Positions 11,260 through 24,504 of a DNA stretch of 64,000 nt are shown here, piece by piece (positions within the stretch are counted from its first letter, which is position 1; each line of letters starts with the position of its first letter). This DNA is from Natronospirales bacterium (GTDB lineage: Bacteria > Pseudomonadota > Gammaproteobacteria > Natronospirales > JAIVGZ01), in contig JAIVGZ010000003.1 in assembly GCA_020201335.1 (NCBI GenBank), forward strand, positions 1,781 through 65,780, in the 5' to 3' direction. A program made the translations under genes and the position numbers. The notes under the pieces were generated by a model, which worked only from the letters and a program-made list of their open reading frames with translations, was not told the origin of the DNA and did not search any database.

Positions 11260-11435
11260 CAATGTAGGAGCGGTGCTCCGCACCGAGATCGCAGAGGCTT
11301 GGACATGCAATGTAGGAGCGGTGCTCCGCACCGCGATAGCAGAGGCTCGGACTTGCAATGTAGGAGCGGTGCTCCGCACCGCGATAGCAGAGGCTCGGAC
11401 TTGCAATGTAGGAGCGGTGCTCCGCACCGCGATAG
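11260..11435 (+). repeat. Tandem array of four REP-type units (48-bp period)
   Basis: CAATGTAGGAGCGGTGCTCCGCACCGCGATAGCAGAGGCTCGGACTTG repeats at 11260, 11308, 11356 and 11404. The last copy is partial. The array is intergenic. Confidence 0.9.
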
Positions 11436-12186: not shown

Positions 12187-12873
12187 ATGCTCAAATCACT
12201 GCTCCAGCGCACCGGCCTGCACGGCCTCGACCGCCGCGCGAAAAAAGCGCTCGGTATCCATAAAGACCACATGAGCCACCCGCCGTACGGGGCAGACGCC
12301 CACCGGCTGGTCAAGGCGCACATCGACATCGTGCGCTACGGCTCGATCGCACTCGCGCTGCACCGGCTGAACGAGGAGCAGGTACCGGGTGCGATGGCCG
12401 AGCTCGGTGTGTTCAAGGGCGAGCTCAGCGCATTCCTTGCGGCGATCGAGCGAAAACGCACGCTGCACCTGTTTGACACCTTCGCCGGGTTCCCCGAGGG
12501 CGACCTCGAGGCGGGCGAGACCAACGATGCGCGCTTCCAGGACACCAGCGAAGATGCGGTGCGCACGCGCATCGGCGACTGCAGCAATGTCCGCTTCCAC
12601 GTTGGCCCGTTCCCCGACACCGCGGGCCCGATCATGAACGAACGCTTCGCATTCGTGGTGCTCGACCCCGACAAGTACAAGCCGACGCTGGCTGGGCTTG
12701 AAATCTTCTACCCACGCATGCGCTCCGGCGGCTATATATTCATGCACGACTACAACAACCCCGAGTCCGACTTCGCGGTTTCGCGCGCCGCGCACGAATT
12801 CTTGCAGGACAAACCCGAAAAGCTCATCGACATCCCCGACGCCAACGGCTCGGCGCTGTTCCGGAAAACTTGA
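12187..12873 (+). CDS. TylF/MycF-family class I SAM-dependent O-methyltransferase
   Basis: 228 aa with ..ELGVFKGELSAFL.., ..FDTFAGFPE.., ..LDPDKYKPT.. and ..GGYIFMHDY.. patterns. Confidence 0.7.
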   Translation: MLKSLLQRTGLHGLDRRAKKALGIHKDHMSHPPYGADAHRLVKAHIDIVRYGSIALALHRLNEEQVPGAMAELGVFKGELSAFLAAIERKRTLHLFDTFAGFPEGDLEAGETNDARFQDTSEDAVRTRIGDCSNVRFHVGPFPDTAGPIMNERFAFVVLDPDKYKPTLAGLEIFYPRMRSGGYIFMHDYNNPESDFAVSRAAHEFLQDKPEKLIDIPDANGSALFRKT

Positions 12874-13268
12874 AAATCCCGCCCCCGATTGTTGGCGCTG
12901 CTTGCTGCGCGCTCGTGTGGGCGCTCGACCGCGCGCTCCCCACAGCGCGCATCGTGACGCGGTGGAACGACGAAATCGCGCTCGCGCTTTTGATTGCAGG
13001 CATCGGTCTCGCCGCCGCCGGCGCCATCTCGTTCGAGCGTGCAGACACGACCGTCGACCCGCTGCACCCGGAGCGCTCGACCGCGCTCGTCACGAGCGGC
13101 GTGTTCCGTATCACGCGCAACCCGATGTATGTCGGCATGGCACTCGGAGTCGCCGCGTTCGTCGTCTGGATCGACCGCATGCAGATACCCGCCGAGGAGC
13201 GCGCGCTGGCCGCGCACTTCGGGCCCGCGTTTGCTGCGTACCGAGACCGCGTCCGCCGCTGGCTCTAA
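12870..13268 (+). CDS. Isoprenylcysteine carboxyl methyltransferase (ICMT/PEMT)-family membrane protein, shortened
   Basis: ..TSGVFRITRNPMYVGMAL.. and the C-terminal ..AAYRDRVRRWL. Relative to the cassette paralogue (23364-23858) it lacks about 17 residues between the RNPMY helix and the PxEE motif. Confidence 0.65.
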   Translation: MKIPPPIVGAACCALVWALDRALPTARIVTRWNDEIALALLIAGIGLAAAGAISFERADTTVDPLHPERSTALVTSGVFRITRNPMYVGMALGVAAFVVWIDRMQIPAEERALAAHFGPAFAAYRDRVRRWL

Positions 13269-13284
13269 GCTTCAGTCCAACGCG

Positions 13285-13454
13285 GCTGCGTACAACGGCC
13301 CCGCACTCACGCGGGGGCCGCTTGTTGAAGAATAGGATGACATCCGTGCCCACGCGACATACGCCTTCTCGGTACTGCGCGCGTAGTGGCGGACCCGGAC
13401 TGCATCGCGGATTGACTGAAGGAACGCGGATTCTCCCATCACGCCTCCATGCAT
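13285..13454 (-). pseudogene. intI: Integron integrase (IntI) N-terminal remnant, frameshifted and 3'-truncated
   Basis: The minus strand reads MHGGVMGESAFLQSIRDAVRVRHYARSTEKAYVAWAR, then frame-shifts to ..VILFFNKRPPRECGAVV. This matches the IntI N-terminus (..IRxRHYSxRTExAYVxWxRRFIxFHxKRHPxEMG..). Only about 56 codons remain before the stop of the ICMT gene. Confidence 0.8.
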
Positions 13455-13554
13455 TTTGGGAAAAATGGCAACGAAATAAATCTAGACTGAACGGGAAACC
13501 GCGTCTATGGTTTAGCGAAACGGAGCGTCCCGACAGGAAAGTTTATGACCCTCT

Positions 13555-13612
13555 CCATTCCAATAACTAACCCAACTATGACCCTCCAACGGGTCACACA
13601 TAGTCGTTAGCG
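13555..13612 (+). promoter_or_regulatory. attI recombination site (junction GTTAGCG at 13606-13612)
   Basis: Lies directly between the intI start and the first cassette. TTAGCGCCAACG (13607 onward) is the reverse complement of CGTTGGCGCTAA, which precedes the first attC (14190-14201). The left side resembles the second junction at 18395-18455. Confidence 0.7.
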
Positions 13613-13617
13613 CCAAC

Positions 13618-14187
13618 GTGATCTCACGCTTTGCGTCAGGCATACAACGAGACGTATTGACACGCGCTGGCCTGACTGCTTGTGCCTTAATTGTGGTGAT
13701 TGCTAGCGGATTGCTACTGAGCATGTACTCTGACAAGGCGTTCAATTGGATTCCAGTCGCTGTAGGAATCTCCTTAGTGAGTTGGGCGCTCTTTTGGTTC
13801 CGGAGATATCGACAAGCACGCACCTGGATGCCTGTCGAGGCGCAGGTGCTGAAAATTATGGAAAAGTCGCGAGGTGTGCGAATCGGCGTCGGTCTCTACC
13901 TATACGTGTATCCATCCGTGACTTTTCGGTATGAGGTGCACGGGCAAACCTACATGGGGGGCGAGTCGAGCGTGGAGATTGAGAATATTTGGGTTCCCGA
14001 CTATGAGCGCACCTCCGCGTTCTGGGCAGACTGGGCAGATGGGAAACGGATTACCGCCGTTTACAATCCCACGAATCCTAAACAGGCGATGCTGATGACG
14101 GAACTTAGTAAGAGCCGGTTGTCCCACCACGCCGCTGTTCTGAGTGCAGGACTTCTTGTGCTTGTTTTAGGCGTGATTCTTCTGTGA
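13618..14187 (+). CDS. Cassette 1: DUF3592-like membrane protein
   Basis: 189 aa with TM helices at both ends. The central ..W.PVEAQV......YPSVTFRYEVHGQTY.G......GKRITAVYNPTNPKQAML.. pattern is typical of DUF3592. GTG start. Confidence 0.6.
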   Translation: MISRFASGIQRDVLTRAGLTACALIVVIASGLLLSMYSDKAFNWIPVAVGISLVSWALFWFRRYRQARTWMPVEAQVLKIMEKSRGVRIGVGLYLYVYPSVTFRYEVHGQTYMGGESSVEIENIWVPDYERTSAFWADWADGKRITAVYNPTNPKQAMLMTELSKSRLSHHAAVLSAGLLVLVLGVILL

Positions 14188-14192
14188 GGGTT

Positions 14193-14320
14193 GGCGCTAA
14201 CAATGCATCGGAGCGGCCGCGCTCCGCGGTTTCTAGGGAGGGTCTGGTAAAGATGACAAGGATAAAGTTCCAATCTGAAATCTCGGCGGCGTCGCGCGCC
14301 GCTCAACGCAGTCGTTAGAG
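14193..14320 (+). repeat. attC 1 (class A, about 128 bp)
   Basis: GGCGCTAAC...CATCGGAGCGGCCGCGC...GCGCGCCGCTCAACGCAGTC GTTAGAG. Confidence 0.85.
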
Positions 14321-14326
14321 GACGCT

Positions 14327-14869
14327 ATGTCCGTCGCCGACGTCGCCACCATTACGATCGCGCTCATCGCCCTCGCGGTATCCCTATACGCTGTCACGCG
14401 CGACCGAAGGCAACGACAGTTCGACTTGTTCCTTCGCTGCCACGATCGGTTAAAGCAGTTACAGAAGGAGACCCCTTTACTGCCGCCATCTCAGTATCTA
14501 GAAATGGAGGAAGACCCCGGGAACCCGGCTTGGGAGAAGTACCAAATCCAATCGACCGAGGCACAGTTGCGGCTTGATAGCGAATTAGAGACTGCATGCT
14601 ACTTGGCGGTGAAGGGCGAACTGAATGTGGAAGTATTCTTCAATTTATTTCGTGGCTGGCTTGCGATGAGAGATGTGATGTGGACCTCGGGGGTAGGCGA
14701 ACATCGCGCTCGAAATCACCCATACACAGTGGCGGTCATCGAAATGTGTAGAAGGCGTAAGCTGTTACCAATTAAGGATAATGTAGAGTTTCGAGAGATG
14801 ACGAAACTCGTGAACGAATACCTTGGCGAGTCGGCGTCCTCTAACAAAGCATTGGAGCGGTCGCGCTAA
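14327..14869 (+). CDS. Cassette 2: hypothetical protein with an N-terminal TM anchor
   Basis: 180-aa ORF starting 12 nt after the attC core. No recognisable family. The stop lies inside its attC. Confidence 0.6.
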   Translation: MSVADVATITIALIALAVSLYAVTRDRRQRQFDLFLRCHDRLKQLQKETPLLPPSQYLEMEEDPGNPAWEKYQIQSTEAQLRLDSELETACYLAVKGELNVEVFFNLFRGWLAMRDVMWTSGVGEHRARNHPYTVAVIEMCRRRKLLPIKDNVEFREMTKLVNEYLGESASSNKALERSR

Positions 14870-14968
14870 GGAGTGTTCGATGAATGGACTGGTAAAGACG
14901 AAGTTGGGAATAAAGTGCTTTCTGTCAGCGTCGCCGCTTCCGCGCGCCGCTCAACGCGGGTGTTAGGC
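14834..14968 (+). repeat. attC 2 (class A)
   Basis: GCGTCCTCTAAC (reverse complement of 14314 GTTAGAGGACGC) ... CCGCTCAACGCGGGT GTTAGGC. Confidence 0.85.
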
Positions 14969-14972
14969 GCCA

Positions 14973-15485
14973 ATGAGTGATCTCCGGCCAATCGTCGACT
15001 GGATGCAGGCGACTCACGATAAAGAGGCCGCGGAACGCATCGTCGCCTCACAGTGGCGCTATCTCGCGAGCTATTTCGAGAAATCCGTCGCCTATGCCAA
15101 CGTTCTCGTCATTGCGGGATACGCCAGCTACTTCGGGCTATGGACACTTGCCCGTACGCACATAGATACCGGCCCAGCGACTGCGTCAGCACTGCTAATG
15201 GCCATCTCAGTTGTGCTTTATCTGTCGTTCCAAGTGTTTTCGTTATTCCGAATGAGTCAGTCCGTCATTGACCATCAGGCTGCATTGAAAACTAGGCTGC
15301 GGGGAAAAAGCCCGCAGGAGATGGTAAAGGAACTCGAGGAAATTGAAGATGAGGCGGCAGAGTCCACGCTGAAGCTTATGCCCTGGTGGCGTCGGTTTGT
15401 GCTTTCGGCCATTGTTGCGGGCCTCGCCGCGTTTGGAATCCTCGGCTACGAGTTTGTACGTGTTCTGCACTATATTGGCGCCTAA
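14973..15485 (+). CDS. Cassette 3: hypothetical membrane protein (about 4 TM plus a central coiled segment)
   Basis: 170-aa ORF filling the cassette. No recognisable family. Confidence 0.6.
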   Translation: MSDLRPIVDWMQATHDKEAAERIVASQWRYLASYFEKSVAYANVLVIAGYASYFGLWTLARTHIDTGPATASALLMAISVVLYLSFQVFSLFRMSQSVIDHQAALKTRLRGKSPQEMVKELEEIEDEAAESTLKLMPWWRRFVLSAIVAGLAAFGILGYEFVRVLHYIGA

Positions 15486-15602
15486 CGATGCATTGGAGCG
15501 GCCGCGCTCCGCGGTTTCTAGGGAGGGACTGGGAAAGATGATCGGGATAAAGTGCAGATCGGCAAGGTTGGCGGCGCGTGCCGCTCAACGCAGGGGCTAA
15601 GC
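15477..15602 (+). repeat. attC 3 (class A) with a non-canonical core GCTAAGC
   Basis: GGCGCCTAAC (reverse complement of 14962 GTTAGGCGCC) ... CCGCTCAACGCAGGG GCTAAGC. The second core base is C, not T. Confidence 0.75.
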
Positions 15603-15612
15603 GGCTGAGAAA

Positions 15613-16356
15613 ATGCGTGAGCTACTCGAACAATCGGAAGCGCTTCAGAACCTGTTGATATCGCAGGCAACCGGAGGCCGCGAAGACGATGCGGAGTTCG
15701 TGCGGCTCCGACAGATGCTCCTCTCCAATCCTGCGCTAGATCCGTTCGTCCCTCGCTTTGTTCGAACATGCAGGAACCTGTCGCAGTTTTGGCAGTTCAT
15801 AAAGTTCAGGTACGGCAGTTATGCCGAACGTCGAGATTACATATGGAACGAGTTCGCCCCTCTGCTCGACGCCCTGGAGCGCGGACCACTTTCACCCGCT
15901 GATCAGCTTGTCTCCGAGAAGCTTGAGACTTTCGATGCCTCACACGTGCAAGCCGCCTGGTCCAAGGCGCTTGAACGGCGCACATCCGATCCGGAAGGGG
16001 CGATAACGTCCGCCCGTACCCTGATCGAGTCTGTGTGCAAGCACATCCTCGATTCTGCAGAGGTGCCTTATGATGATGGGGCAGATCTTCCAAAGCTTTA
16101 CAAATTGACGGCAGAAGCCCTGAAGCTCGCGCCCTCGCAGCATACCGAGTCAGTGTTCAAGCAGATCCTGGGCGGCTGCACTGCCGTAGTGGAAGGGCTC
16201 GGCTCCCTGAGAAACCGCCTGAGTGACGCGCATGGAAAAGGTAGGATCGGCTCAAAGCCCGCCTCTCGCCACGCCGAGTTGGCCGTCAATCTCTCTGGCG
16301 CACTGGCTATTTTCCTGCTGGCGACATGGGAAGCACGAAACGAGGCAGCACCCTAA
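15613..16356 (+). CDS. Cassette 4: Abi_C-domain (abortive infection C-terminus, AbiJ/Abi-like) protein
   Basis: 247 aa. The C-terminal half (..ARTLIESVCKHIL...LYKLTAEAL......GLGSLRNRLSDAHGKG....RHAELAVNLSGALAIFLL..) matches the Abi_C (PF14355-type) pattern as recalled. Confidence 0.65.
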   Translation: MRELLEQSEALQNLLISQATGGREDDAEFVRLRQMLLSNPALDPFVPRFVRTCRNLSQFWQFIKFRYGSYAERRDYIWNEFAPLLDALERGPLSPADQLVSEKLETFDASHVQAAWSKALERRTSDPEGAITSARTLIESVCKHILDSAEVPYDDGADLPKLYKLTAEALKLAPSQHTESVFKQILGGCTAVVEGLGSLRNRLSDAHGKGRIGSKPASRHAELAVNLSGALAIFLLATWEARNEAAP

Positions 16357-16441
16357 CTATGCGTTCAACCAGGCTGCGGGGAGAGGCTACTGTGTTTCCT
16401 GATATTCTGTCGGCCCGCTACCGCTTAACGCGGCGTTATGG
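16351..16441 (+). repeat. attC 4 (class B, about 91 bp)
   Basis: CCCTAACTATGCGTTCAACC...CCGCTTAACGCGGC GTTATGG. The inner arms GCGTTCAA/GCTTAACGC pair. Confidence 0.8.
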
Positions 16442-16980
16442 TCATGGCCCCGCTCGCTGACCGCGTGACCGTGAATCTCACGCCGCTCGAAATCGCCGAG
16501 CGCCAGATCGACCGTGCGATTACTTTATTTCTGGACGATGCAGATTATATTTCCGCATCAACCCTCGCCGGTGCAGCGGAGGGAATAATTGGCGACCTCC
16601 TGCGGCGCGGTGGGCGTCCCTACGCTTTGGATGACATAGTGAAAGGCGCAATGGCATTAACTAAAGAAATGGATCCTTCTGATTCGTCCAAAAGAAAAGA
16701 CTACATAGCATTCGTGAACGACTTTCGAGATCGTCTAAAACACCTAAAGAGTGGTGAAACACTGCACTGCTCGGTCGATTACGAAGCTGCTTGCTTGATT
16801 GACCGTGCGATGGACAATTACTTCAATCTGACCGAAAGCGAGACCGAGACGATGCTCCGCTTTCGGAGGTTTAACTACTTCGAAATTGAGACGGGGCAGC
16901 CAAAACAATGCATTGGAGCGGCCGCGGAACCTGCCCCGATAAAAGAGAAGCTCCCGAGTGAAATGCTTCGGGAAAAATAA
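16438..16980 (+). CDS. Cassette 5: hypothetical cytoplasmic protein
   Basis: 180-aa ORF. Its 3' end reads through the partial attC. No recognisable family. Confidence 0.55.
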   Translation: MVMAPLADRVTVNLTPLEIAERQIDRAITLFLDDADYISASTLAGAAEGIIGDLLRRGGRPYALDDIVKGAMALTKEMDPSDSSKRKDYIAFVNDFRDRLKHLKSGETLHCSVDYEAACLIDRAMDNYFNLTESETETMLRFRRFNYFEIETGQPKQCIGAAAEPAPIKEKLPSEMLREK

Positions 16981-16985
16981 AGCGT
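16897..16985 (+). repeat. attC 5, truncated (left arm and centre only)
   Basis: CAGCCAAAACAATGCATTGGAGCGGCCGCGGAACCTGCC..GGGAAAAATAAAGCG parallels the left two-thirds of attC 9 and 14. The right arm (GCGCGCCGCTCAACGC..GTTRRRY) is missing. Confidence 0.7.
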
Positions 16986-17012
16986 AGGCGAGCTCACGAA
17001 GGTAAAGAGATC

Positions 17013-18023
17013 ATGAAGAATAAAGGCCTGCTCCTTTTCCCAGTTCTGCTACTAGTTGCGCACATCGACGAAGTGCTAGCCGTTCAATCTCCCATGATTG
17101 ATAAGACTGACACTTGCTATCAGGGCGAATTCAGTAATCTTGAAAGCTACCTTTCTCGACCTATTACGAGAACGGCGTATGACGATCCGGTCCAGTTTGA
17201 GCGGGCAAGGGTCAGATACACCTGGTGGCGCGATAACTTCGATTGCGACTGGATCAGTTATTCAGTCGACGGTTTGGAGGTTAATGGCTTTGTTGTGAAG
17301 CCGACTGGCGACTCTCCACCAGAAGGGTGGCCCGTTGTAATTTTCAATCACGGGGGAAATGCCGACATCGGCTCGGTACGGTTCGAGTACATTGCAGCGC
17401 GCCTGTTCCCGATAGTTGAAGCCGGCTTCGTCGTTATGGGTACCCAGTACCGCGGCGCGAAGATTGACGGAGCCGATAGTCCGGACAGACTCCGGGATGA
17501 ATTCGGCGGAAGCGATGTCAACGATGTGCTCGCCTTGATTTCCATTGCAGATTCGATTCCGGAAGCGGATGGGAGCAGGATCGGAATGTATGGGATAAGC
17601 CGCGGCGGGATGATGAGTTTTCTTGCTGCGCGTCGTACAAACAGAATTTCGACAATAGTGGTACAAGATACGCCAACTGATTTGGTGCGAGGGTTGGAGT
17701 TCACGCCTGACATGGTGCGGGTATTTACCAAATGGATTCCTGACTATGAAAAGAATCCACATGAGGCCTTGATACAACGATCGGCGTTGTACTGGCTGGA
17801 TGAACTCGACCCAAACATGTCCGTATTGATCTTGCACGGCACTGCGGATCAACGGGTGAGTGCTGAACAGGCCTTGGTAACGGCACTTAAATTGCAGGAA
17901 TTGCGCCGCCAATATAAATTGGTTATCTACCCAAATGCGTCGCACGGTCTTCGTGAATATCATCAAGCCGTGGAAACAGAAATAATTGCTTGGTTCTCGT
18001 CGGTCCTCCGCAAGGATTACTGA
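17013..18023 (+). CDS. Secreted alpha/beta hydrolase (S9 prolyl-oligopeptidase/dienelactone-hydrolase-like)
   Basis: Signal peptide, nucleophile elbow GISRGGMM and ..LILHGTADQRV... 336 aa. Not bounded by an attC. Confidence 0.7.
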   Translation: MKNKGLLLFPVLLLVAHIDEVLAVQSPMIDKTDTCYQGEFSNLESYLSRPITRTAYDDPVQFERARVRYTWWRDNFDCDWISYSVDGLEVNGFVVKPTGDSPPEGWPVVIFNHGGNADIGSVRFEYIAARLFPIVEAGFVVMGTQYRGAKIDGADSPDRLRDEFGGSDVNDVLALISIADSIPEADGSRIGMYGISRGGMMSFLAARRTNRISTIVVQDTPTDLVRGLEFTPDMVRVFTKWIPDYEKNPHEALIQRSALYWLDELDPNMSVLILHGTADQRVSAEQALVTALKLQELRRQYKLVIYPNASHGLREYHQAVETEIIAWFSSVLRKDY

Positions 18024-18394
18024 TACACGGAGGGGCTGACCATAACTGTCTGTTTATCCAGCGTTAGCAAAGATGACGCCGCAGGATTTTCGCTCTGTGG
18101 AACGGACCGCCATGGCGCTAGCTAATTAGATCCGCCGCTCACTTTTCTGGGGGCGTTCGAGCAGCGCGAATGACCTGTCCTCCGTAATTAGTACCGCTTC
18201 CGGTCTCGCTCGCGCTGCCATCTCTGATCTCCTCACACTTTGGTGCATTCGGAGCAGAAGGCAGGTTCCATCACCTCATATTTGGGATGGATGAACGAGA
18301 GATGGACGAGTTCGTGCGGATTGGTGGACGAGCGGCGTTTCGATGCCCTACATTCTATTGCAACGAGCCCCAACGGACGGAGTCGGCATGCCTG

Positions 18395-18455
18395 AACGTT
18401 CCATATTAACTACCCCGCGTATAACCCCCCTGAGGGTCATACATAGGTGTTAGCG
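18395..18455 (+). promoter_or_regulatory. Second attI-like junction (GTTAGCG at 18449-18455)
   Basis: AACTACCCCGCGTATAACCCCCCTGAGGGTCATACATAGGTGTTAGCG resembles the attI at 13565-13612 (AACTAACCCAACTATGACCCTCCAACGGGTCACACATAGTCGTTAGCG). TTAGCGAACGAGCT is the reverse complement of AGCTCGTCCGCTAA (18951) with one mismatch. Confidence 0.6.
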
Positions 18456-18512
18456 AACGAGCTAGACCAGCCTCGTGCCGGGCGTATACTTGACCGAGAG
18501 AGGTAGGAGCGA

Positions 18513-18713
18513 ATGCGCAGACTTGACGAAATCGAGAACCAAATCAAGGCGCTCTCTCGCGAAGAGTTCAAAGAACTGCGCGAGTGGATTCTCGAGCGCG
18601 ATTGGGAAGCATGGGACGCTCAGGTCAGCCGTGACGCCGAGGCAGGGAAGCTGGACCACGCCTTGAACGAAGCGAGAGACGACTACAAGGCTGGGCGCTC
18701 GCGCGAGTTGTGA
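18513..18713 (+). CDS. Cassette 7: putative antitoxin partner of the ParE-like toxin
   Basis: 66-aa acidic helical protein overlapping the downstream toxin gene by 4 nt (GTGA). The antitoxin role is assigned by position. Confidence 0.55.
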   Translation: MRRLDEIENQIKALSREEFKELREWILERDWEAWDAQVSRDAEAGKLDHALNEARDDYKAGRSREL

Positions 18714-18964
18714 AGCATTCTGCCTCGTCGAAGTTCTGGTCGCTATACCAGAACTTGCCCAAGGAGGTCCGGGCCATTGCGGACAAGAGCTTCGAGATAC
18801 TCAAATCTGACCCGGGGCATCCTTCGCTCCATTTTAAAAAGATCGGTGCGCTTCGGTCTGTCCGAATCGGGCTCCAATACCGTGCTTTGGGATACGACGT
18901 GGATGGCGGTGTTCATTGGTTTTGGATCGGGACGCATGGGGAGTATGACAAGCTCGTCCGCTAA
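18710..18964 (+). CDS. Cassette 7: RelE/ParE-superfamily toxin (ParE-like)
   Basis: 84 aa with ..DPGHPSLHFKKIGALRSVRIGLQYRALG....WFWIGTHGEYDKL.. , the pattern of the ParE-like toxin family. Confidence 0.7.
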   Translation: MKHSASSKFWSLYQNLPKEVRAIADKSFEILKSDPGHPSLHFKKIGALRSVRIGLQYRALGYDVDGGVHWFWIGTHGEYDKLVR

Positions 18965-19084
18965 CAAAGCATTGGAGCGACCGCGCTCCGCGGTTTCTAG
19001 CGAGGACCTGGTAAAGATGACAAGGATAAAGTGCCTATCTGCAATCGCGGTGATGTCGCGCGCCGCTCAACGCGAGTGTTAGGC
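18951..19084 (+). repeat. attC 7 (class A)
   Basis: AGCTCGTCCGCTAACAAAGCATTGGAGCGACCGCGC...GCGCGCCGCTCAACGCGAGT GTTAGGC. Confidence 0.85.
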
Positions 19085-19104
19085 AACGGTCACACGGAGG
19101 TGCC

Positions 19105-19302
19105 ATGCCCCCGAAAATCCGGGACCTTATCGCAGAATTGGAGCGCGCCGGCTTCGTGGACCGGGGCGGCAAAGGCAGCCACAGGAACTTCGTCCATCCC
19201 GGGGTTAAAATGCCGGTAACCGTCTCTGGCAACCTTGGCGACGATGCGAAGCACTACCAGACCCGTGCAGTAAAGAGGGCGCTGGAGGAGGCGAAGAAAT
19301 GA
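19105..19302 (+). CDS. hicA: Cassette 8: HicA-family mRNA interferase toxin
   Basis: 65 aa. ..LERAGFVDRGGKGSHRNFVHPG.. is the HicA/YcfA signature. Confidence 0.8.
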   Translation: MPPKIRDLIAELERAGFVDRGGKGSHRNFVHPGVKMPVTVSGNLGDDAKHYQTRAVKRALEEAKK

Positions 19303-19538
19303 AGGACAGCGCGAAGTACGTCAAGTTGGTGGAATGGTCCGAGGAGGACCAATGCTACGTCGGTAGCGCTCCGGGTCTCATCTTTGGCGGATGCCACGGC
19401 GACAACGAGAAGGCCGTCTTTGACGAACTTTGCGACGTCGTCGAGGAGACGATCGCGCTTTATCACAAGGATGGCAAAGCTCTGCCGCCTCCAACTGCAG
19501 GGCAGGACTTAGCCAACAAGCTGCAGACCGTCGCCTAA
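19299..19538 (+). CDS. hicB: Cassette 8: HicB-family antitoxin
   Basis: 79 aa overlapping hicA by 4 nt. ..WSEEDQCYVGSAPGL..CHGDNEKAVFDEL..VEETIALY.. is HicB-like. Confidence 0.7.
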   Translation: MKDSAKYVKLVEWSEEDQCYVGSAPGLIFGGCHGDNEKAVFDELCDVVEETIALYHKDGKALPPPTAGQDLANKLQTVA

Positions 19539-19658
19539 CAAAGCATTGGAGCGGCCGCGCTCCGCGGTTTCTAGGGAGGGACTGGTAAAGATGACAAGGA
19601 TAAAGTTCCGATCTGAAATCGCGGTGTGGTCGCGCGCCGCTCAACGCAGGTGTTAGAT
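19527..19658 (+). repeat. attC 8 (class A)
   Basis: ACCGTCGCCTAAC (reverse complement of 19078 GTTAGGCAACGGT, one mismatch) ... CCGCTCAACGCAGGT GTTAGAT. Confidence 0.85.
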
Positions 19659-19664
19659 GCCATC

Positions 19665-20237
19665 ATGAAGGCGTTGCTGGTCTCGGCAATCCTCCCCGCG
19701 TTTCTAGCGATTGCCAGTTGCGTCTCCACACCTACTGCGGTGGAGCAAGTTTCAGAATGGATTGAGCTACAGTATTGGCTCGATTCTGACTGTCGGTTTG
19801 TCGCTGCACCGACTGATGGCAATGACGCATCCGTCATCGACTTAGGACATGCCGGTGCTGCTTTTCTCCGCGCAGCACTGGTGCAAGAACTGCATGAGAT
19901 TGACTGGTCTCAAATTGAGAGCACGCGCGGACTCGCCTATAGAGGCGCCCCCCACGCACAAGCGGACCACATTGAAGACGAGATTGCGAGAAAAGGCCCG
20001 TGGCCTCTGACGGCGCGAGGCTTGCTGGATCCGACCCGGCCGACTGCTCCTACGTATGGGGCCCGCGCGATTTGTGGTTTCGACGAAAATGGAGAAATTG
20101 ACATGGTGATGCTCTACTCGTCGGAGTACGAAGGCGGGAGGCGCATCATCCCGCGGGCTGAACTCGAACCTGGGAGGAATATAGTTGATCCCGTCCACGT
20201 TCGGATTGAACTTCGATTGCTGTTCAACGGCATCTAA
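19665..20237 (+). CDS. Cassette 9: hypothetical lipoprotein
   Basis: Lipobox FLAIASC after the ATG at 19665. The tracked ORF start at 19626 lies inside the attC. No recognisable family. Confidence 0.6.
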   Translation: MKALLVSAILPAFLAIASCVSTPTAVEQVSEWIELQYWLDSDCRFVAAPTDGNDASVIDLGHAGAAFLRAALVQELHEIDWSQIESTRGLAYRGAPHAQADHIEDEIARKGPWPLTARGLLDPTRPTAPTYGARAICGFDENGEIDMVMLYSSEYEGGRRIIPRAELEPGRNIVDPVHVRIELRLLFNGI

Positions 20238-20358
20238 CGAAGCATTGGAGCGGTCGCGCGGAGCTGCCGATTAGCGAGGGACTGGAAATGCGTTCAGGGA
20301 TAAAGTGCTTCTCAACAGCGGTCGCCGGTCCGCGCGCCGCTCAACGCTGGGGTTAGGC
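20228..20358 (+). repeat. attC 9 (class A variant)
   Basis: ACGGCATCTAACGAAGCATTGGAGCGGTCGCGCGGAGCTGCC...GCGCGCCGCTCAACGCTGGG GTTAGGC. Confidence 0.85.
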
Positions 20359-20408
20359 AGTCGTAGAACCACTGATGTGCTTCCGGCGGATAGGGGTGAT
20401 CAACATTA

Positions 20409-20810
20409 ATGGTTAATACGATAGCTGCGCTGGTGGTACTGCTAACCGGCCTGTACTTGGTCACACTCTCCGCGTTCTCAGTTTTCGATTCGGGACGCGC
20501 TGCGCGCTTCCTTGAGGCGTTCGCGAGTAACAAAAGCGCTCACTTCGTGGAGCTTTCCCTTCGCCTTATCGTGGGAGTTAGCATACTGGTATACGCACCG
20601 CGCATGCTATTCCCAGACATGTTCACAGTGTTTGGCTGGATCATTACTGTTACGACCATCGGCTTATTCGCGATTCCTTGGCGGTGGCATCGCGACTTCG
20701 CTCAACAAGTGGTGCCTTTGGTTACCAAGCATCTCGGATTATTTTCAATTGGCTCGCTTGCGCTTGGAGCAGTTATCATGCTTTCGGTAATGTTTGGATA
20801 TGGCACTTAA
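20409..20810 (+). CDS. Cassette 10: hypothetical 4-TM membrane protein
   Basis: 133-aa hydrophobic ORF filling the cassette. Confidence 0.6.
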   Translation: MVNTIAALVVLLTGLYLVTLSAFSVFDSGRAARFLEAFASNKSAHFVELSLRLIVGVSILVYAPRMLFPDMFTVFGWIITVTTIGLFAIPWRWHRDFAQQVVPLVTKHLGLFSIGSLALGAVIMLSVMFGYGT

Positions 20811-20841
20811 AACGTGTAGACAACGCACACGTGGTGAAATC

Positions 20842-20972
20842 CGACGCCTAACTACGCGTTGGAGCGGCCTGATGAAAAGTAGGCGGCCATGCGCCTCGGG
20901 CGCGCTTTAATATTGTGCGCCCTCGGCGAATGGACAATACGCGGCGCCTGCCGCTCAACGCAGGGGTTAGAG
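20842..20972 (+). repeat. attC 10 (class C, about 131 bp)
   Basis: CGACGCCTAACTACGCGTTGGAGCGGCC...CTGCCGCTCAACGCAGGG GTTAGAG. The central part differs from class A and resembles attC 15. Confidence 0.8.
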
Positions 20973-20984
20973 CGCGGGTGACGA

Positions 20985-21254
20985 ATGCAGTTCGAATGGT
21001 CCAAGGAGAAGGCCCAAGCAAATGCGACAAAGCACGGGGTCACATTCTTGGAAGCCCGTACCGTATTCGGCGATCCGCTGTCCTCGACAACCCCGGACCC
21101 TGAGCACTCGCTGGACGAAGCTAGGTTCCTGATATTTGGTCGTTCTGTTACAGGTCGAGCCCTTGTCGTATCCTTTACCGAGCGTGGCGAAAGTATCCGC
21201 CTCATTTCGGCCCGTTCAATGACGCCGCGCGAGATTCGAGCCTATGAGCAATAA
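20985..21254 (+). CDS. brnT: Cassette 11: BrnT-family (DUF497) ribonuclease toxin
   Basis: 89 aa. ..FEWSKEKAQANATKHGVTFLEARTVFGDP......R.LIFG......LVVSFTERGESIRLISAR.. is the BrnT pattern. Confidence 0.8.
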   Translation: MQFEWSKEKAQANATKHGVTFLEARTVFGDPLSSTTPDPEHSLDEARFLIFGRSVTGRALVVSFTERGESIRLISARSMTPREIRAYEQ

Positions 21255-21450
21255 CGACGACAAGCTGAGAGACGAATACCCCGAGGACCTCATCCGCGGC
21301 GGGGAGCGGGGTAAGTACGCCGCGCGATATCGAGAAAGCGAACACTTCGTTGCGATAGATCCCGAAATGCACGAACTCTTTCCAGACGCGGAGTCTGTGA
21401 ATAAAGCACTCCGTGAGTATGCCGCCGAGAAGAAGAAGTCCGCGCCCTAA
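21244..21450 (+). CDS. brnA: Cassette 11: BrnA-like antitoxin
   Basis: 68 aa overlapping brnT by 11 nt. ..GERGKYAARY....VAIDPEMHELFPDAESVNKALR.. is BrnA-like. Confidence 0.65.
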   Translation: MSNNDDKLRDEYPEDLIRGGERGKYAARYRESEHFVAIDPEMHELFPDAESVNKALREYAAEKKKSAP

Positions 21451-21570
21451 CAAAGCATTGGAGCGGCCGCGCTCCGCGGTTTCTATGGAGGGACTGGTAA
21501 AGATGTCAGGGATAAAGTGCAACTTGGCTAGCTCGGCGCTGTCACGCGCCGCTCAACGCGGGTGTTAGGC
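21439..21570 (+). repeat. attC 11 (class A)
   Basis: TCCGCGCCCTAACAAAGCATTGGAGCGGCCGCGC...CACGCGCCGCTCAACGCGGGT GTTAGGC. Confidence 0.85.
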
Positions 21571-21573
21571 CGC

Positions 21574-22227
21574 ATGACGAAACCTAGGAAGCCCATGAAT
21601 AGAGCAAAGCTCGCCCGACTCCTACTCTTCGCATCCATTCTTTATGTAATTGGCTTCTACTTCATTGGCAGCGCCATAAAGCCGGGATACTCACAGATTA
21701 CAAACTTTGTCAGTGAGTACAACGCAGCTGGAACGTCTTGGGCTCAAACGCTTACTTATGCAGGTTTTGCTGCCACGTCAGCAATCCTTGCGGCGTTCTT
21801 AGTCACAACTTTGCCACTTCTTAATGTTTCCGGCGCAAGTCGCATGGGAGCATGGCTTTTGTGGTCTGTTCCCGCGTCATACCTTCTTGCTGTGATTGCC
21901 CCTTGTGATGCTGGGTGCCCGCTTGACGGTTCGACCAGCCAGATCGCACACAATTTGCTTGCCATCATCACCTACTTCGGCATGGGCGCCAGCATCTTCC
22001 TAATTTCACTGGCCCCGGAATTCGGTAACTTCAAGCTGCGCCGCGGCTTCCTGCTTGTGACCGGCATCGCCTTTCCAGTAGTGTTCTTCCTCATGGTTCA
22101 GCCAGAGCTAGCCTTGTGGGGCGGCTTGATGCAGCGTCTACTAGACGTTGCAATGGCTATATCTTTGGCAATAGTTGTTTGGACACTCGCGCCGACCGAC
22201 CGCGATGTACAGCGGACTGCGGCCTAA
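21574..22227 (+). CDS. Cassette 12: polytopic membrane protein (possibly DUF998-like)
   Basis: About 217 aa and 6 TM segments. The ATG at 21574 lies just after the attC core. Confidence 0.55.
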   Translation: MTKPRKPMNRAKLARLLLFASILYVIGFYFIGSAIKPGYSQITNFVSEYNAAGTSWAQTLTYAGFAATSAILAAFLVTTLPLLNVSGASRMGAWLLWSVPASYLLAVIAPCDAGCPLDGSTSQIAHNLLAIITYFGMGASIFLISLAPEFGNFKLRRGFLLVTGIAFPVVFFLMVQPELALWGGLMQRLLDVAMAISLAIVVWTLAPTDRDVQRTAA

Positions 22228-22282
22228 CAATTCGTTCAAGCCGAACTGGCTTCGCCAGTCGCCTTAACTCAGGTGGTTAGAC
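22219..22282 (+). repeat. attC 12 (short class, 64 bp)
   Basis: GCGGCCTAAC (exact reverse complement of 21564 GTTAGGCCGC) AATTCGTTCAAGCC...GCCTTAACTCAGGTG GTTAGAC. Confidence 0.85.
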
Positions 22283-22320
22283 CTCACCACAACTTTCATG
22301 GGTGTTCGAAGGAGAGAAGC

Positions 22321-22839
22321 ATGTTCCTGCCAAAGTGGCTCATTGCACTGCTAGTTTTGGTCTTTACGGCTCTTGCCGCTTGGACCTATCTTTTGGCGAT
22401 TGAGCGCAACCCACTTCCATTCCCTGACCGTGGGTCGCGCATTTTCTCCACACCGTCTCCTGAAGCCAAAGAAGCCCTTGTTTCTCTTCTTGCCCGCCAC
22501 GGTATCAGGGAACGGTTTCAGGCCAACAGCAGCGGAATCCTTCGTTCAATCATGTGGGATGGAACCATCATCAACTACGCCCCACCGGACGTCGTTGAGA
22601 AACTTGGCCACGCCACTGCCAGTATTGGACTTGTCGCTGATGATCCGGTGGCTAGCGCCAACGCTGCGGCCGAATTTTTGCGGTCGCACGGCTTTGAGGC
22701 AAGCGTTGTCCTAGACGCTGAGCCTGAGTTGCCTATTGCCTTTGTTGTGACCAACGCGACGTCAGGCACCGTGCTGAACTTTCGTAAGCATGTCATCCAT
22801 CTACCGCGGCCACAATCTGTCGACACAAATCCCGAGTGA
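22321..22839 (+). CDS. Cassette 13: hypothetical protein with an N-terminal TM anchor
   Basis: ATG at 22321 preceded by AAGGAGAG. 172 aa. No recognisable family. Confidence 0.6.
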   Translation: MFLPKWLIALLVLVFTALAAWTYLLAIERNPLPFPDRGSRIFSTPSPEAKEALVSLLARHGIRERFQANSSGILRSIMWDGTIINYAPPDVVEKLGHATASIGLVADDPVASANAAAEFLRSHGFEASVVLDAEPELPIAFVVTNATSGTVLNFRKHVIHLPRPQSVDTNPE

Positions 22840-22880
22840 GGTCTAACCATGCGTTCAAGCGGACCGCGGGGAGAGGCTAT
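22836..22880 (+). repeat. attC 13, truncated (class B left arm only)
   Basis: GTGAGGTCTAAC (exact reverse complement of 22276 GTTAGACCTCAC) CATGCGTTCAAGCGGACCGCGGGGAGAGGCTAT parallels the left half of attC 4, then breaks. Confidence 0.75.
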
Positions 22881-22883
22881 CGG

Positions 22884-22991
22884 AAAGGGACAAAGGTCAT
22901 CTTGCTTTTGGCAGGTGGTGACAAGTCCACGCAACGGCGTGATATTGAACGCGCTGTCGATCTACTCAACCAGTTGGACCTTGAATCATGA
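22884..22991 (+). pseudogene. 3' remnant of an addiction-module killer (HigB/RelE-type) toxin gene
   Basis: Reads ..VILLLAGGDKSTQRRDIERAVDLLNQLDLES*, the conserved C-terminus of the 'addiction module killer protein' family. The stop overlaps the downstream ATG (ATGA). The N-terminal ~70 codons are absent. Confidence 0.7.
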
Positions 22992-23203
22992 GCCACTCTA
23001 AGCCAAAGAAACCGAAGATTGTGCCTTTCGATGCCGCCCGATACCTAGGCGACGACAAGGCAATCGCGGAGTACATGACCGCCGTGCTTGAAAGCGACGA
23101 TCCCGATCTGTTGCTGGCGGCGCTCGGAGACGTAGCTCGTGCTAAAGGAATGGGCGAGGTTGCAAAGGCCTTGGGGATTCAGCTTACCGCTAAGGTGGCA
23201 TGA
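22988..23203 (+). CDS. Addiction-module antidote protein (HigA-family), probably shortened
   Basis: ..PFDAARYLGDDKAIAEYMTAVLESDDPDLLLAALGDVARAKGM.. matches the antidote family N-terminus. The HTH region appears abbreviated (71 aa). Confidence 0.65.
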   Translation: MSHSKPKKPKIVPFDAARYLGDDKAIAEYMTAVLESDDPDLLLAALGDVARAKGMGEVAKALGIQLTAKVA

Positions 23204-23204
23204 T

Positions 23205-23333
23205 TGGCTCTAACGAAGCATTGGAGCGGCCGCGCGGAGGCAGTTTCAATGAAGGGACTGGAAATGAGTATATGGATAAAGTGCAATTCAATTAGGCAGG
23301 CGCGTCCGCACGCCGCTAAACGCGTCGTTATGC
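23205..23333 (+). repeat. attC 14 (class A variant)
   Basis: TGGCTCTAACGAAGCATTGGAGCGGCCGCGCGGAGGCAG...GCACGCCGCTAAACGCGTC GTTATGC. Confidence 0.8.
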
Positions 23334-23363
23334 AGCGCCACGCAAACCTTAAGGAGTACCACT

Positions 23364-23858: not shown

Positions 23859-23871
23859 CAGATATGGTCGA

Positions 23872-23999
23872 CTGCATAACTACGCGTTGGAGCGGCCAGT
23901 GAAAACTTGTTGGTCATGCGCCTCGGGCGCGCTTCGCTATTGTGCGCCCACTGCGCATGGGCAAACGGCGGCGAGTGCCGCTCAACGCGGGTGTTAGAC
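23872..23999 (+). repeat. attC 15 (class C)
   Basis: CTGCATAAC (exact reverse complement of 23327 GTTATGCAG) TACGCGTTGGAGCGGCC...GTGCCGCTCAACGCGGGT GTTAGAC. Confidence 0.85.
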
Positions 24000-24014
24000 A
24001 TCACTGGAGAAGGA

Positions 24015-24446: not shown

Positions 24447-24447
24447 A

Positions 24448-24471: not shown

Positions 24472-24504
24472 GGACTTCCGGCGCCAAGGGTAGAGGAGGA
24501 GCGC

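What the first reader, a model, noticed from the sequence alone, without database searches (positions are those of the whole stretch)
15613..16356. Single-gene cassette encoding an Abi_C-type abortive-infection candidate
The C-terminal half of the 247-aa protein carries the pattern I associate with the Abi_C domain (..SLRNRLSDAHGKG...RHAELAVNL..). This domain occurs in AbiJ/AbiD-like phage-exclusion proteins. The N-terminal half is unassigned.

The gene occupies the fourth cassette from attI. Integron cassettes have recently been recognised as carriers of compact anti-phage genes, which makes this the best defence candidate in the window.
Basis: partly seen in the sequence, partly recalled or inferred. 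Interest (0 to 1): 0.7.

Follow-up and report, generated by a model that had tools for sequence, protein, structure and literature searches.

The report
AbiJ-type RNase gene in integron cassette
A single-gene integron cassette in a Xanthomonadaceae genome encodes a predicted RNA-cutting "abortive infection" anti-phage protein; it is a real and well-conserved but fairly ordinary member of a known defence family, and its N-terminal half is an uncatalogued module that other defence enzymes also carry.

Summary
ORF 15613-16356 (+, 247 aa) carries Pfam Abi_C (PF14355, E 1.1e-20) and an invariant HEPN RNase motif, R200-N201-x5-H207. It is the fourth cassette after attI.

NCBI already names the identical protein "abortive infection family protein". 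Thousands of full-length relatives (43-90% identity) occur in many bacterial phyla and one archaeon. They sit in integron cassettes, a P2-like prophage, an integrative island, plasmids and type I restriction-modification operons, with no conserved partner gene.

The "unassigned" N-terminal 105 residues form a confident seven-helix domain. It matches nothing in Pfam, in the PADLOC models or among PDB folds. The same domain is fused elsewhere to TIR, CHAT and kinase effectors, which suggests a swappable sensor or regulator.

Most likely mechanism (inferred): a self-contained, phage-triggered HEPN RNase that arrests the infected cell. Experimental precedents are SadR and the Vibrio cassette Taranis.

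Caveats. intI is only a frameshifted remnant. The attC upstream of the gene has lost its GTT core (GCTAAGC). No promoter was found. The phenotype is untested.

Verdict: new member of a known kind, moderate-to-low interest.

The parts
13270..13454 (-). Remnant of the integron integrase gene intI (first ~60 codons, one frameshift, then truncated against a PEMT-family gene)
   Evidence: Phage_int_SAM_4 matches residues 11-38 at E 9.8e-5, below the Pfam cut-off. A second frame reads ...ILFFNKRPPRECGAVV..., which continues the IntI-like sequence. The neighbouring + strand genes 12187-12873 (TylF) and 12870-13268 (PEMT) have Pfam hits of their own.
13605..13611 (+). Putative attI crossover core, GTTAGCG, 7 nt before the first cassette ORF
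   Evidence: Read directly from the sequence. The position relative to the intI remnant and the first ORF is as expected. Inferred, not tested.
15481..15602 (+). attC of cassette 3, which is the 5' boundary of the Abi_C cassette. R'' is GCCTAAC. R' is degenerate: GCTAAGC at 15596-15602 instead of GTTAGGC.
   Evidence: attC sequence model R1: 45.6 bits, E 6.6e-14. The bottom strand folds with paired ends. The L'-box scan shows 10 of 11 sites with GTTA and this one with GCTAAGC. In alignments with 7 homologous cassettes and 21 other attC sites, all the others have GTTAG/GTTAT.
15597..16435 (+). The cassette itself (839 bp): one ORF plus its attC. There are 10 nt between R' and the start codon.
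   Evidence: Boundaries follow from the R' positions. The same 10-nt spacing is seen in homologous cassettes L006-L008, L011 and L016.
15613..16356 (+). ORF of 247 aa: uncatalogued N-terminal domain plus AbiJ-type HEPN (Abi_C) domain
   Evidence: PHROG 23253 matches the full length at E 1.4e-77. dN is 0.06-0.16 with saturated dS against homologues.
15613..15927 (+). N-terminal domain, residues 1-105: seven helices, with conserved motif R..L.QFWQFIK....YAERR..IW.EF.P
   Evidence: AF2 pLDDT 89.3, pTM 0.79. No Pfam hit at E<=1. No fold match in PDB or BFVD. 1005 representative proteins carry it, some of them fused to TIR, CHAT or Pkinase instead of HEPN.
15934..16323 (+). HEPN domain of the AbiJ type, residues 108-237. 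The Pfam Abi_C core is residues 160-236 (16090-16320).
   Evidence: Foldseek matches to solved HEPN domains: 1wol prob 0.96, 3o10 prob 0.92, 2hsb prob 0.80.
16210..16233 (+). Predicted catalytic motif R200-N201-R-L-S-D-A-H207 (RNx5H), at the end of helix 180-203 and the start of the following loop
   Evidence: R200, N201 and H207 are invariant in 39 homologues. Helix and loop positions come from the AF2 model. SadR has the same spacing, RNEYGDAH, and R, N and H are each essential there for RNase activity and defence (PMC13590631).
16351..16441 (+). attC of the Abi_C cassette (91 nt). R'' is CCCTAAC and contains the stop codon. R' is GTTATGG and contains the next cassette's ATG.
   Evidence: R1: 23.8 bits, E 4.2e-7. 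The bottom strand folds into the expected bulged hairpin with paired R''/R'. A related left arm occurs at 22843.

Best explanation
The cassette encodes a self-contained, single-protein abortive-infection (or growth-arrest) defence enzyme of the AbiJ/Abi_C HEPN RNase class.

Proposed mechanism:
1. The C-terminal four-helix HEPN domain (residues ~108-237) probably dimerises, as HEPN RNases generally do. This would bring two R200-N201-x5-H207 motifs together into one RNase site.
2. The N-terminal seven-helix domain (residues 1-105) keeps this site silent until infection. It does so either by sensing a phage-derived or infection-induced cue, or by acting as a cis-inhibitor that is relieved on infection.
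3. The released RNase cleaves single-stranded cellular and phage RNA. Translation stops and the phage burst is aborted.

What is shown here:
- The ORF, its domains, the invariant catalytic triad and the HEPN fold.
- Strong purifying selection.
- A stand-alone genetic organisation.
- Location on many kinds of mobile element.
- Modular re-use of the N-terminal domain with TIR, CHAT and kinase effectors.

What is inferred from relatives (SadR, Taranis, L. lactis AbiJ): RNase activity, dimerisation, triggering by phage, and the anti-phage phenotype.

In this genome the cassette sits in a decayed integron, with an intI remnant and a mutated upstream R'. It is therefore probably no longer mobilisable on its own, and its expression is unproven.
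For: Domains and fold:
- Abi_C at E 1.1e-20.
- PADLOC AbiJ at E 2.3e-19 over the HEPN half.
- AF2 model pLDDT 84.3, with R200/N201 at the end of helix 180-203 and H207 in the following loop. This is exactly where the Rx4-6H motif lies in HEPN domains (PMC3710099).
- Foldseek finds solved HEPN domains at prob 0.80-0.96.
- R200, N201 and H207 are invariant in 39 homologues.

Experimental precedents:
- SadR, another Abi_C protein with the same RNx5H spacing, degrades ssRNA and runs at about twice its monomer size on native PAGE. It loses both RNase activity and phage defence when R, N or H is mutated.
- The Vibrio cholerae cassette Taranis (Abi_C) is a validated anti-phage cassette.

Genomic context:
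- Homologues sit in a P2-like prophage between tail gene D and ogr, and in an integrase/AlpA/RadC island.
- 20 plasmid records carry a full-length copy.
- Some copies lie next to type I hsdM-hsdS.
- 7 of 65 genome loci have the gene directly flanked by attC.
- No neighbour is conserved across the 65 loci.

Other points:
- No RNA-antitoxin repeats and no Rfam element.
- The N-terminal domain is fused to TIR_2, CAP12-PCTIR_TIR, CHAT and Pkinase in other proteins. PADLOC models (SpbK, PDC-S66, PDC-S35, PDC-S05) match only their effector halves.
- dN is 0.06-0.16 with saturated dS.
Against: - There is no phenotype, RNase assay or expression data for this protein or for any member of its exact family.
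- No sigma-70-like promoter was found on the + strand between attI and the gene. The gene is fourth in the array, and distal cassettes are often poorly expressed.
- PADLOC's AbiJ model is matched over less than half its length. According to PMC13590631, PADLOC assigned none of 2815 Abi_C proteins and DefenseFinder assigned only 56.6%. A defence-finder call is therefore not guaranteed.
- The role of the N-terminal domain (sensor, cis-antitoxin or oligomerisation module) is pure inference. It has no structural or sequence relative of known function.
- The unusually strong conservation across phyla is atypical for a phage-sensing domain.
Confidence: 0.7

Rival explanations
1. The gene acts as an addiction or stabilisation module. 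The protein would be a fused toxin-antitoxin, with HEPN as the toxin and the N-terminal domain as a cis-antitoxin. Its main role would be to stabilise the cassette array or other mobile elements against loss, not to stop phages.
For: HEPN domains are classical toxins, and PMC3710099 suggests the N-terminal domains might act as antitoxins. The same array carries HicA and ParE-like toxin cassettes, which are typical of sedentary integrons. Homologues lie on plasmids and on an integrative island.
Against: A covalently fused antitoxin cannot give post-segregational killing, because that relies on a labile, separately made antitoxin. No separate antitoxin gene or RNA repeat is present. Relatives lie in restriction-modification operons and in a prophage accessory-gene position typical of defence genes. 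Abi_C relatives have measured anti-phage activity.
Confidence: 0.08
2. The gene is intact but silent cargo in this host. The cassette would be a fossil in a dead integron, not transcribed and contributing nothing at present, although the family is functional elsewhere.
For: intI is reduced to a frameshifted remnant. The upstream attC has lost the GTT core. No promoter-like site was found on the + strand from 13200 to 16600. The gene is in fourth position, and position effects on cassette expression and cost are documented.
Against: The ORF is full length with every invariant residue of the family intact. One homologous cassette (L016) has acquired a premature stop, so decay does occur and would be visible here. 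The consensus promoter scan is weak evidence, and many cassettes carry atypical internal promoters.
Confidence: 0.15
3. The N-terminal domain is a homotypic adaptor, like a death-like or effector-associated domain. It would recruit the HEPN effector to a separate sensor protein bearing the same domain, so the cassette would be only half of a system.
For: The domain is a small helical bundle shared by TIR, CHAT, kinase and HEPN effectors. This is the pattern known for adaptor domains in NTPase-centred conflict systems (my own knowledge of that literature). Some proteins carry two tandem copies.
Against: No neighbour family is conserved across the 65 loci. The gene travels alone in 839-bp cassettes, in a prophage and on plasmids. 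None of the 150 representative proteins scanned carried an NTPase or other sensor-type Pfam domain next to this domain.
Confidence: 0.05

Closest known systems
AbiJ (Abi-859) of Lactococcus lactis, and the Pfam Abi_C / 'AbiJ' HEPN family (Anantharaman et al. 2013, PMC3710099)
   Same: The C-terminal HEPN domain is of the same family (Pfam Abi_C E 1.1e-20; PADLOC AbiJ E 2.3e-19 over model positions 146-275 of 281). It has the same two-part architecture of a variable N-terminal domain plus HEPN. It is a single-gene system.
   Different: The N-terminal 105 residues do not match the AbiJ model's N-terminal 145 positions, nor Pfam AbiJ_NTD3, 4 or 5. The host phylum differs, and this copy is carried by an integron cassette. 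The mechanism of AbiJ itself is still unknown (PMC13064643).
SadR of Staphylococcus aureus (Kondo et al. 2026, PMC13590631)
   Same: It is an Abi_C protein of similar size (266 aa). It has an identical motif layout, RNx5H (RNEYGDAH in SadR, RNRLSDAH here). It acts as a single gene. SadR has demonstrated ssRNA RNase activity and anti-phage and anti-plasmid defence that depend on R, N and H.
   Different: The sequences were not compared directly here. SadR is chromosomal, next to rlmH, in Firmicutes. This protein's N-terminal domain falls in that paper's 'no NTD recognised' class.
Taranis, a Vibrio cholerae superintegron cassette (Darracq et al., bioRxiv 10.1101/2024.07.02.601686; Science 2025)
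   Same: It is an Abi_C-domain protein encoded by a sedentary chromosomal integron cassette, and it was experimentally shown to protect against phage.
   Different: [quoted passage not shown] The host and attC type differ.
AbiJ-NTD1 and AbiJ-NTD2 domains defined in 2013 (exemplars Bcep1808_2091 and BF1118), which are not in Pfam
   Same: [quoted passage not shown] AbiJ-NTD1 is also helical and is fused to kinases.
   Different: Identity could not be tested. The exemplar sequences and alignments were not retrievable. CHAT fusions are not reported for either domain. NTD1 is described as about 140 aa, and NTD2 as having a conserved beta strand that the AF2 model does not show.
TIR single-gene defence proteins of the SpbK, PDC-S66, PDC-S35 and PycTIR types
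   Same: Some proteins whose C-terminal TIR halves match these PADLOC models carry the same N-terminal domain as this protein. This implies a shared trigger or regulatory logic with a different effector.
   Different: The effector is a TIR (NADase-type) domain rather than a HEPN RNase. The PADLOC models themselves do not include this N-terminal domain.

Membership tests
Pfam Abi_C (PF14355) | Score above the curated gathering threshold of the family HMM | tested here: met
   73.9 bits against a cut-off of 24, E 1.1e-20, residues 160-236 covering model positions 1-82 of 83.
HEPN superfamily | [quoted passage not shown] | tested here: met
   R200-N201-x5-H207 is invariant in 39 homologues. It lies at the end of predicted helix 180-203 and in the following loop. 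The location criterion comes from PMC3710099.
HEPN superfamily | Four-helix up-and-down bundle fold | tested here: met
HEPN superfamily | Metal-independent or Mg-assisted RNase activity that depends on the R and H residues | not testable with these tools
   Shown only for the relative SadR.
AbiJ system (L. lactis type, PADLOC PDLC02347) | Match to the whole AbiJ protein model, including its N-terminal domain | tested here: not met
   Only model positions 146-275 of 281 are matched, by residues 108-237. The N-terminal 145 positions are unmatched.
AbiJ system | N-terminal domain of one of the catalogued types AbiJ_NTD3, 4 or 5 | tested here: not met
   No Pfam family other than Abi_C at E<=1 for the whole protein, and none at all for residues 1-105.
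AbiJ system | N-terminal domain of type AbiJ-NTD1 or AbiJ-NTD2 (not in Pfam) | not testable with these tools
   No exemplar sequences were obtainable. The supplement holds no alignment, and no B. fragilis member appeared in a search seeded from a Bacteroidales homologue.
AbiJ system | Abortive-infection phenotype against phage | not testable with these tools
   Requires cloning and phage challenge.
Integron gene cassette | attC at the 3' end: R'' RYYYAAC, imperfect inverted repeat, R' GTTRRRY, bottom strand folding into a bulged hairpin | tested here: met
   The site at 16351-16441 has CCCTAAC ... GTTATGG. R1 gives 23.8 bits, E 4.2e-7. The fold has paired ends and bulges, although its energy z-score (-0.85) is not significant.
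Integron gene cassette | 5' boundary at a functional R' core (G|TT) of the preceding attC | tested here: not met
   R' reads GCTAAGC at 15596-15602. Ten other attC sites in the array and all 7 homologous cassettes have GTTAG or GTTAT. The boundary is recognisable but the conserved GTT triplet is lost.
Integron gene cassette | Lies in an array next to attI and an integron integrase gene | tested here: inconclusive
   There is an array of 12 attC sites, all on the + strand, at 14197-23998, and a plausible attI core at 13605. However, intI is only a frameshifted remnant of about 60 codons.
Type III toxin-antitoxin HEPN systems (AbiF/AbiV type) | Tandem-repeat RNA antitoxin locus next to the toxin gene | tested here: not met
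   No tandem repeats at 15300-16700. No Rfam family at 13000-29000. Only 10 nt lie upstream of the ORF inside the cassette.
Taranis (V. cholerae Abi_C cassette) | Abi_C domain plus an N-terminus related to AbiJ_NTD5 | tested here: not met
   Abi_C is present. AbiJ_NTD5 is not detected at E<=1. No direct sequence comparison was done.

The most novel reading that the evidence does not exclude
The N-terminal 105-residue helical domain may be a defence-sensor or regulator module that has not been catalogued. It is absent from Pfam, does not match the PADLOC models tested and has no fold relative in the PDB. It would define a family of single-protein immune genes in which one input domain is wired to HEPN RNase, TIR, CHAT protease or kinase outputs.

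Its unusual conservation suggests that it monitors a universal, host-derived or infection-generic cue rather than a fast-evolving phage protein. The evidence for that conservation is 43-90% identity across bacterial phyla and one archaeon, and dN/dS below 0.05 where dS could be computed (synonymous sites were saturated in the other comparisons). Candidate cues would be a nucleotide, an RNA species or a translation state.
Probability: 0.3. Interest if true: 0.55.

Novelty: new member of a known kind. Interest (0 to 1): 0.35.

Why it matters
It adds a Xanthomonadaceae example to the recent finding that integron cassettes store compact anti-phage genes. It also shows one such gene moving between cassettes, a prophage, an integrative island, plasmids and restriction-modification operons.

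The more useful lead is the N-terminal domain. It is a well-folded module with no known function, and roughly a thousand sequence clusters carry it, wired to four different effector types. Finding what it binds would explain the trigger for a whole set of single-gene defence systems, including most Abi_C proteins currently classed as having no recognisable N-terminal domain.

For this particular locus the practical importance is small. The gene is already annotated as an abortive infection family protein, and the integron carrying it is decayed.

Tried and rejected
- **Exact-sequence look-ups.** Looking up the window protein and P0001 in the contig index found nothing. Context had to come from homologues.
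- **Home-made attC detector.** My detector (AAC...GTT plus arm complementarity) was unspecific genome-wide, with about 21 hits outside the array at the working threshold. I used it only in a 50-nt window at gene ends and then replaced it with a profile.
- **attC covariance model.** RNAalifold found no consensus pairs in the mixed-length attC alignment, so model R1 is sequence-only. It is biased toward Xanthomonadales-type attC and may miss cassettes in Vibrio-like hosts (L033, L070).
- **Sequence search of the PDB.** A search with the family profile gave only chance hits, with E above 0.1.
- **AbiJ-NTD1/NTD2 test.** The 2013 supplement holds no alignments. A search seeded with a Bacteroidales homologue returned no B. 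fragilis protein.
- **Type III toxin-antitoxin idea.** Rejected: there are no repeats and no room for them in the cassette.
- **Two-gene system idea.** Rejected: no neighbour is conserved.
- **Promoter scan.** It found nothing on the + strand. I treat this as uninformative rather than negative.

Full report
**1. Observation**

The ORF at 15613-16356 (+ strand, ATG start, 247 aa) is present as described. It contains the quoted string GSLRNRLSDAHGKG...RHAELAVNL. Database scans gave the following:
- Pfam Abi_C (PF14355) matches residues 160-236 at E 1.1e-20, 73.9 bits against a cut-off of 24.
- The PADLOC AbiJ model matches residues 108-237, but only to model positions 146-275 of 281 (E 2.3e-19).
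- NCBIfam has no model for it.
- A search of 5.8 billion proteins returned 5200 hits. The identical sequence is already in NCBI as 'MAG: abortive infection family protein [Xanthomonadaceae bacterium]'.

The gene is therefore real and the domain call is far beyond chance.

**2. Integron context**

A stretch of lower G+C (0.54-0.58, against about 0.65 in the flanks) runs from about 13.5 to 28 kb. It consists of short ORFs, all on the + strand, separated by attC-like repeats. A sequence profile built from these repeats finds 12 complete attC sites. All are on the + strand between 14197 and 23998, and there are none elsewhere in the 64 kb.

Reading from the left:
- A roughly 185-bp remnant of intI lies on the minus strand at 13270-13454. 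It has a Phage_int_SAM_4 hit at E 1e-4, one frameshift, and is then truncated against a PEMT-family gene.
- A plausible attI core, GTTAGCG, lies at 13605-13611.
- Cassette ORFs follow at 13618-14187 (DUF3592), 14327-14869, 14973-15485 and 15613-16356.

The gene is therefore in the fourth cassette. The cassette is 839 bp (15597-16435) and holds this ORF alone. The stop codon lies inside R'' (CCCTAAC). The 91-nt attC (16351-16441) ends in R' GTTATGG, which contains the next ORF's ATG. Its bottom strand folds into the expected bulged hairpin with paired ends.

Two signs of decay are worth recording:
- intI is only a remnant. The Xanthomonas integron literature reports that most integrase genes surveyed there are inactivated (10.1101/2025.06.18.660453).
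- The attC immediately upstream (15481-15602) ends in GCTAAGC. Ten other attC sites in the array, and the R' sites of seven homologous cassettes in other genomes, all read GTTAG or GTTAT. From established knowledge of attC sites, the GTT/AAC triplet is the conserved cleavage core. Cassettes 3 and 4 are therefore probably no longer separable by an integrase.

No sigma-70-like promoter was detected on the + strand between 13200 and 16600. Expression is unproven.

**3. The protein**

An AlphaFold2 model built on 39 homologues (pLDDT 84.3) is all-helical with two domains.

C-terminal half (residues ~108-237):
- Foldseek retrieves solved HEPN domains: 1wol at prob 0.96, sacsin 3o10 at 0.92, 2hsb at 0.80.
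- R200, N201 and H207 are invariant among the 39 homologues.
- They sit at the end of helix 180-203 and in the following low-confidence loop. This is the position of the Rx4-6H RNase motif in HEPN domains (PMC3710099).

N-terminal half (residues 1-105):
- Folded alone, it is a confident seven-helix domain (pLDDT 89.3, pTM 0.79).
- It has no Pfam hit at E<=1 and no relative among solved structures by sequence.
- It has no credible fold match in the PDB or in viral structure predictions.

**4. The N-terminal domain is modular**

An exhaustive phmmer search with residues 1-105 against 1.84 billion cluster representatives found 1005 proteins at E<=1e-3. Among the best 150:
- 21 carry Abi_C.
- 15 carry TIR_2 and 4 carry the CAP12/Pycsar TIR domain.
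- 4 carry CHAT and 1 carries a protein kinase domain.
- Many of the rest are short fragments.
- A few have two tandem copies of the domain ahead of a TIR or HEPN domain.

Where PADLOC models match these proteins (SpbK, PDC-S66, PDC-S35, PDC-S05, ThsB-like, AbiJ), the match always covers the C-terminal effector and never the N-terminal domain. Conversely, some plasmid genes match only residues 94-247 of the query, that is, the HEPN half without this N-terminal domain.

This is the effector-swapping pattern that Anantharaman et al. described in 2013 for 'AbiJ-NTD1 to 5'. The present domain is not NTD3, 4 or 5, which are the ones in Pfam. It could be their NTD2 (about 100 aa, mostly helical, fused to AbiJ and TIR) or NTD1. 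I could not test this. Residues conserved in at least 90% of the 150 aligned representatives, whatever their effector (R33, P47, F59, W60, I63, Y70, R73, R74, F81 in this protein's numbering), point to a function intrinsic to the domain.

**5. Distribution and context of the family**

Full-length relatives at 43-90% identity occur in the following groups:
- Xanthomonadales, Burkholderiales, Nitrosomonas, Halomonas, Psychrobacter and Acinetobacter.
- Planctomycetes, Chloroflexi, Cyanobacteria, Bacteroidota and a Truepera MAG.
- One archaeon, Methanobrevibacter curvatus.

A PHROG of unknown function (23253) matches the whole protein at E 1.4e-77.

Contexts are diverse and typical of mobile defence genes:
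- A P2-like prophage of X. arboricola, between tail gene D and ogr.
- An integrase/AlpA/RadC/DUF932/ParB island next to guaA in Burkholderiales and another genome.
- 20 plasmid records with a full-length copy.
- Positions adjacent to type I hsdM-hsdS in Psychrobacter and Pseudidiomarina.
- attC-flanked cassettes in X. hortorum, Stenotrophomonas, Luteimonas, Rhodanobacter, Salinisphaera and two MAGs, which is 7 of 65 genome loci.

Those homologous cassettes share the 10-nt leader but carry a different, 57-60-nt attC.

No neighbouring gene family is conserved beyond close relatives, and there is no RNA-antitoxin-like repeat. The gene therefore works alone. Against the cassette homologues, dN is 0.06-0.16 while synonymous sites are saturated. 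This indicates long-term strong purifying selection on both domains.

**6. Mechanism**

The best-supported reading is a single-protein abortive-infection RNase. A HEPN dimer would form a composite RNx5H active site. The N-terminal domain would hold it inactive until an infection cue arrives, and the released RNase would then degrade single-stranded RNA and stop translation.

The direct evidence here is architectural. The functional steps are borrowed from relatives:
- SadR is an Abi_C protein with the same RNx5H spacing. It cleaves ssRNA, runs at about twice its monomer size on native PAGE, and needs R, N and H for both RNase activity and defence (PMC13590631).
- Taranis is an Abi_C cassette of the V. 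cholerae superintegron and protects against phage.
- Phages that escape L. lactis AbiJ carry mutations in ssDNA-annealing proteins, but its mechanism is otherwise unknown (PMC13064643).

I put 0.7 on this class of mechanism. I put much less on any specific role for the N-terminal domain.

Rival explanations:
- An addiction-type role. This is unlikely for a fused protein with no separate antitoxin.
- The copy in this genome is silent cargo. This is possible and is not exclusive of the main reading.
- The N-terminal domain is an adaptor that needs a partner. This is disfavoured by the solitary contexts.

**7. Comparison and novelty**

The protein is a member of Pfam Abi_C and of the HEPN superfamily; those defining features were tested and met. 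It is not a full-length member of the L. lactis AbiJ model, nor of the NTD3/4/5 subtypes. It is also not demonstrably the same as Taranis.

Anti-phage integron cassettes, including HEPN ones (an AbiV-family cassette, an AbiU2 HEPN cassette, and the Abi_C cassette Taranis), are already published. DefenseFinder hits to abortive-infection systems in Xanthomonas cassettes have been reported.

The finding is therefore a new member of a known kind. What remains open, and modestly interesting, is the uncatalogued and unusually conserved N-terminal module shared with TIR, CHAT and kinase effectors.

**8. Verdict**

- AbiD belongs to a different HEPN family.
- Only the C-terminal half is AbiJ-like.
- The integron is decayed.
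- The N-terminal half is a modular domain rather than simply unassigned.

Interest is 0.35.

Noticed in passing
window 13270-13454 (- strand): The integron integrase is reduced to about 60 codons with one frameshift. It abuts a PEMT-family methyltransferase gene (12870-13268) and a TylF-like methyltransferase gene (12187-12873). The array is effectively a cluster of attC sites without a working integrase.
   Followed up: partly
window 15596-15602: The R' core of the attC between cassettes 3 and 4 reads GCTAAGC. All 11 other attC sites found in the window and 7 homologous cassettes elsewhere have GTTAG or GTTAT. Cassettes 3 and 4 are probably fused as a unit for recombination.
   Followed up: yes
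window 18513-18964 and 19105-19538: There are two small two-gene cassettes that look like toxin-antitoxin pairs. One has a ParE-like toxin at 18710-18964 (E 1.9e-4, below the Pfam cut-off) preceded by a 66-aa ORF. The other has a HicA toxin at 19105-19302 (E 1.4e-10) followed by a 79-aa ORF that may be its antitoxin (no Pfam hit).
   Followed up: partly
window 16904-16926 and 22842-22864: Only the left arm (R''-L'') of an attC is detected at each of these two places. This suggests truncated attC sites and hence fused cassettes, for example ORF 16438-16980 with the S9 peptidase gene at 17013-18023.
   Followed up: no
window 24000-27600: This stretch has low G+C and ORFs only on the + strand (a methyltransferase, MAPEG, DUF2306 and others). 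The attC profile detects no attC site here. Either the sites are of a different type or the region is not made of cassettes.
   Followed up: no
window 23364-23858 versus 12870-13268: A second PEMT-family methyltransferase is encoded inside the array, in addition to the one abutting the intI remnant.
   Followed up: no
window 23417-23450 and 25877-25910: A 34-nt direct repeat, 97% identical, lies 2.46 kb apart inside the array. One copy is within the PEMT cassette ORF. It is unexplained.
   Followed up: no
window 11260-11435: An intergenic tandem repeat of 48 nt x 3.7 copies (96% matches) lies upstream of the WrbA-like flavodoxin gene. Each unit contains a GC-rich palindrome, so it may be a REP-like element. 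It also creates a spurious long ORF on the minus strand.
   Followed up: partly
P0376 (Methanobrevibacter curvatus): A full-length member of this bacterial family is annotated in an archaeal methanogen genome. It is 59% identical to a Bacteroidales homologue. This suggests cross-domain transfer or contamination.
   Followed up: no
L016 4001-4741: In this MAG, the homologous cassette copy has an in-frame stop replacing the conserved W239. This removes the last 9 residues and may be early decay of a cassette gene.
   Followed up: no
L071 2593-3411 (Escherichia phage ESSI2_ev040, Peduoviridae): A P2-like coliphage encodes a 272-aa Abi_C protein just downstream of its integrase. Its HEPN half is 32% identical to the query, and its N-terminal half is different and also unrecognised by Pfam. 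One copy of the record annotates the gene as 'HrpA, ATP-dependent RNA helicase', which looks like a mis-annotation.
   Followed up: partly
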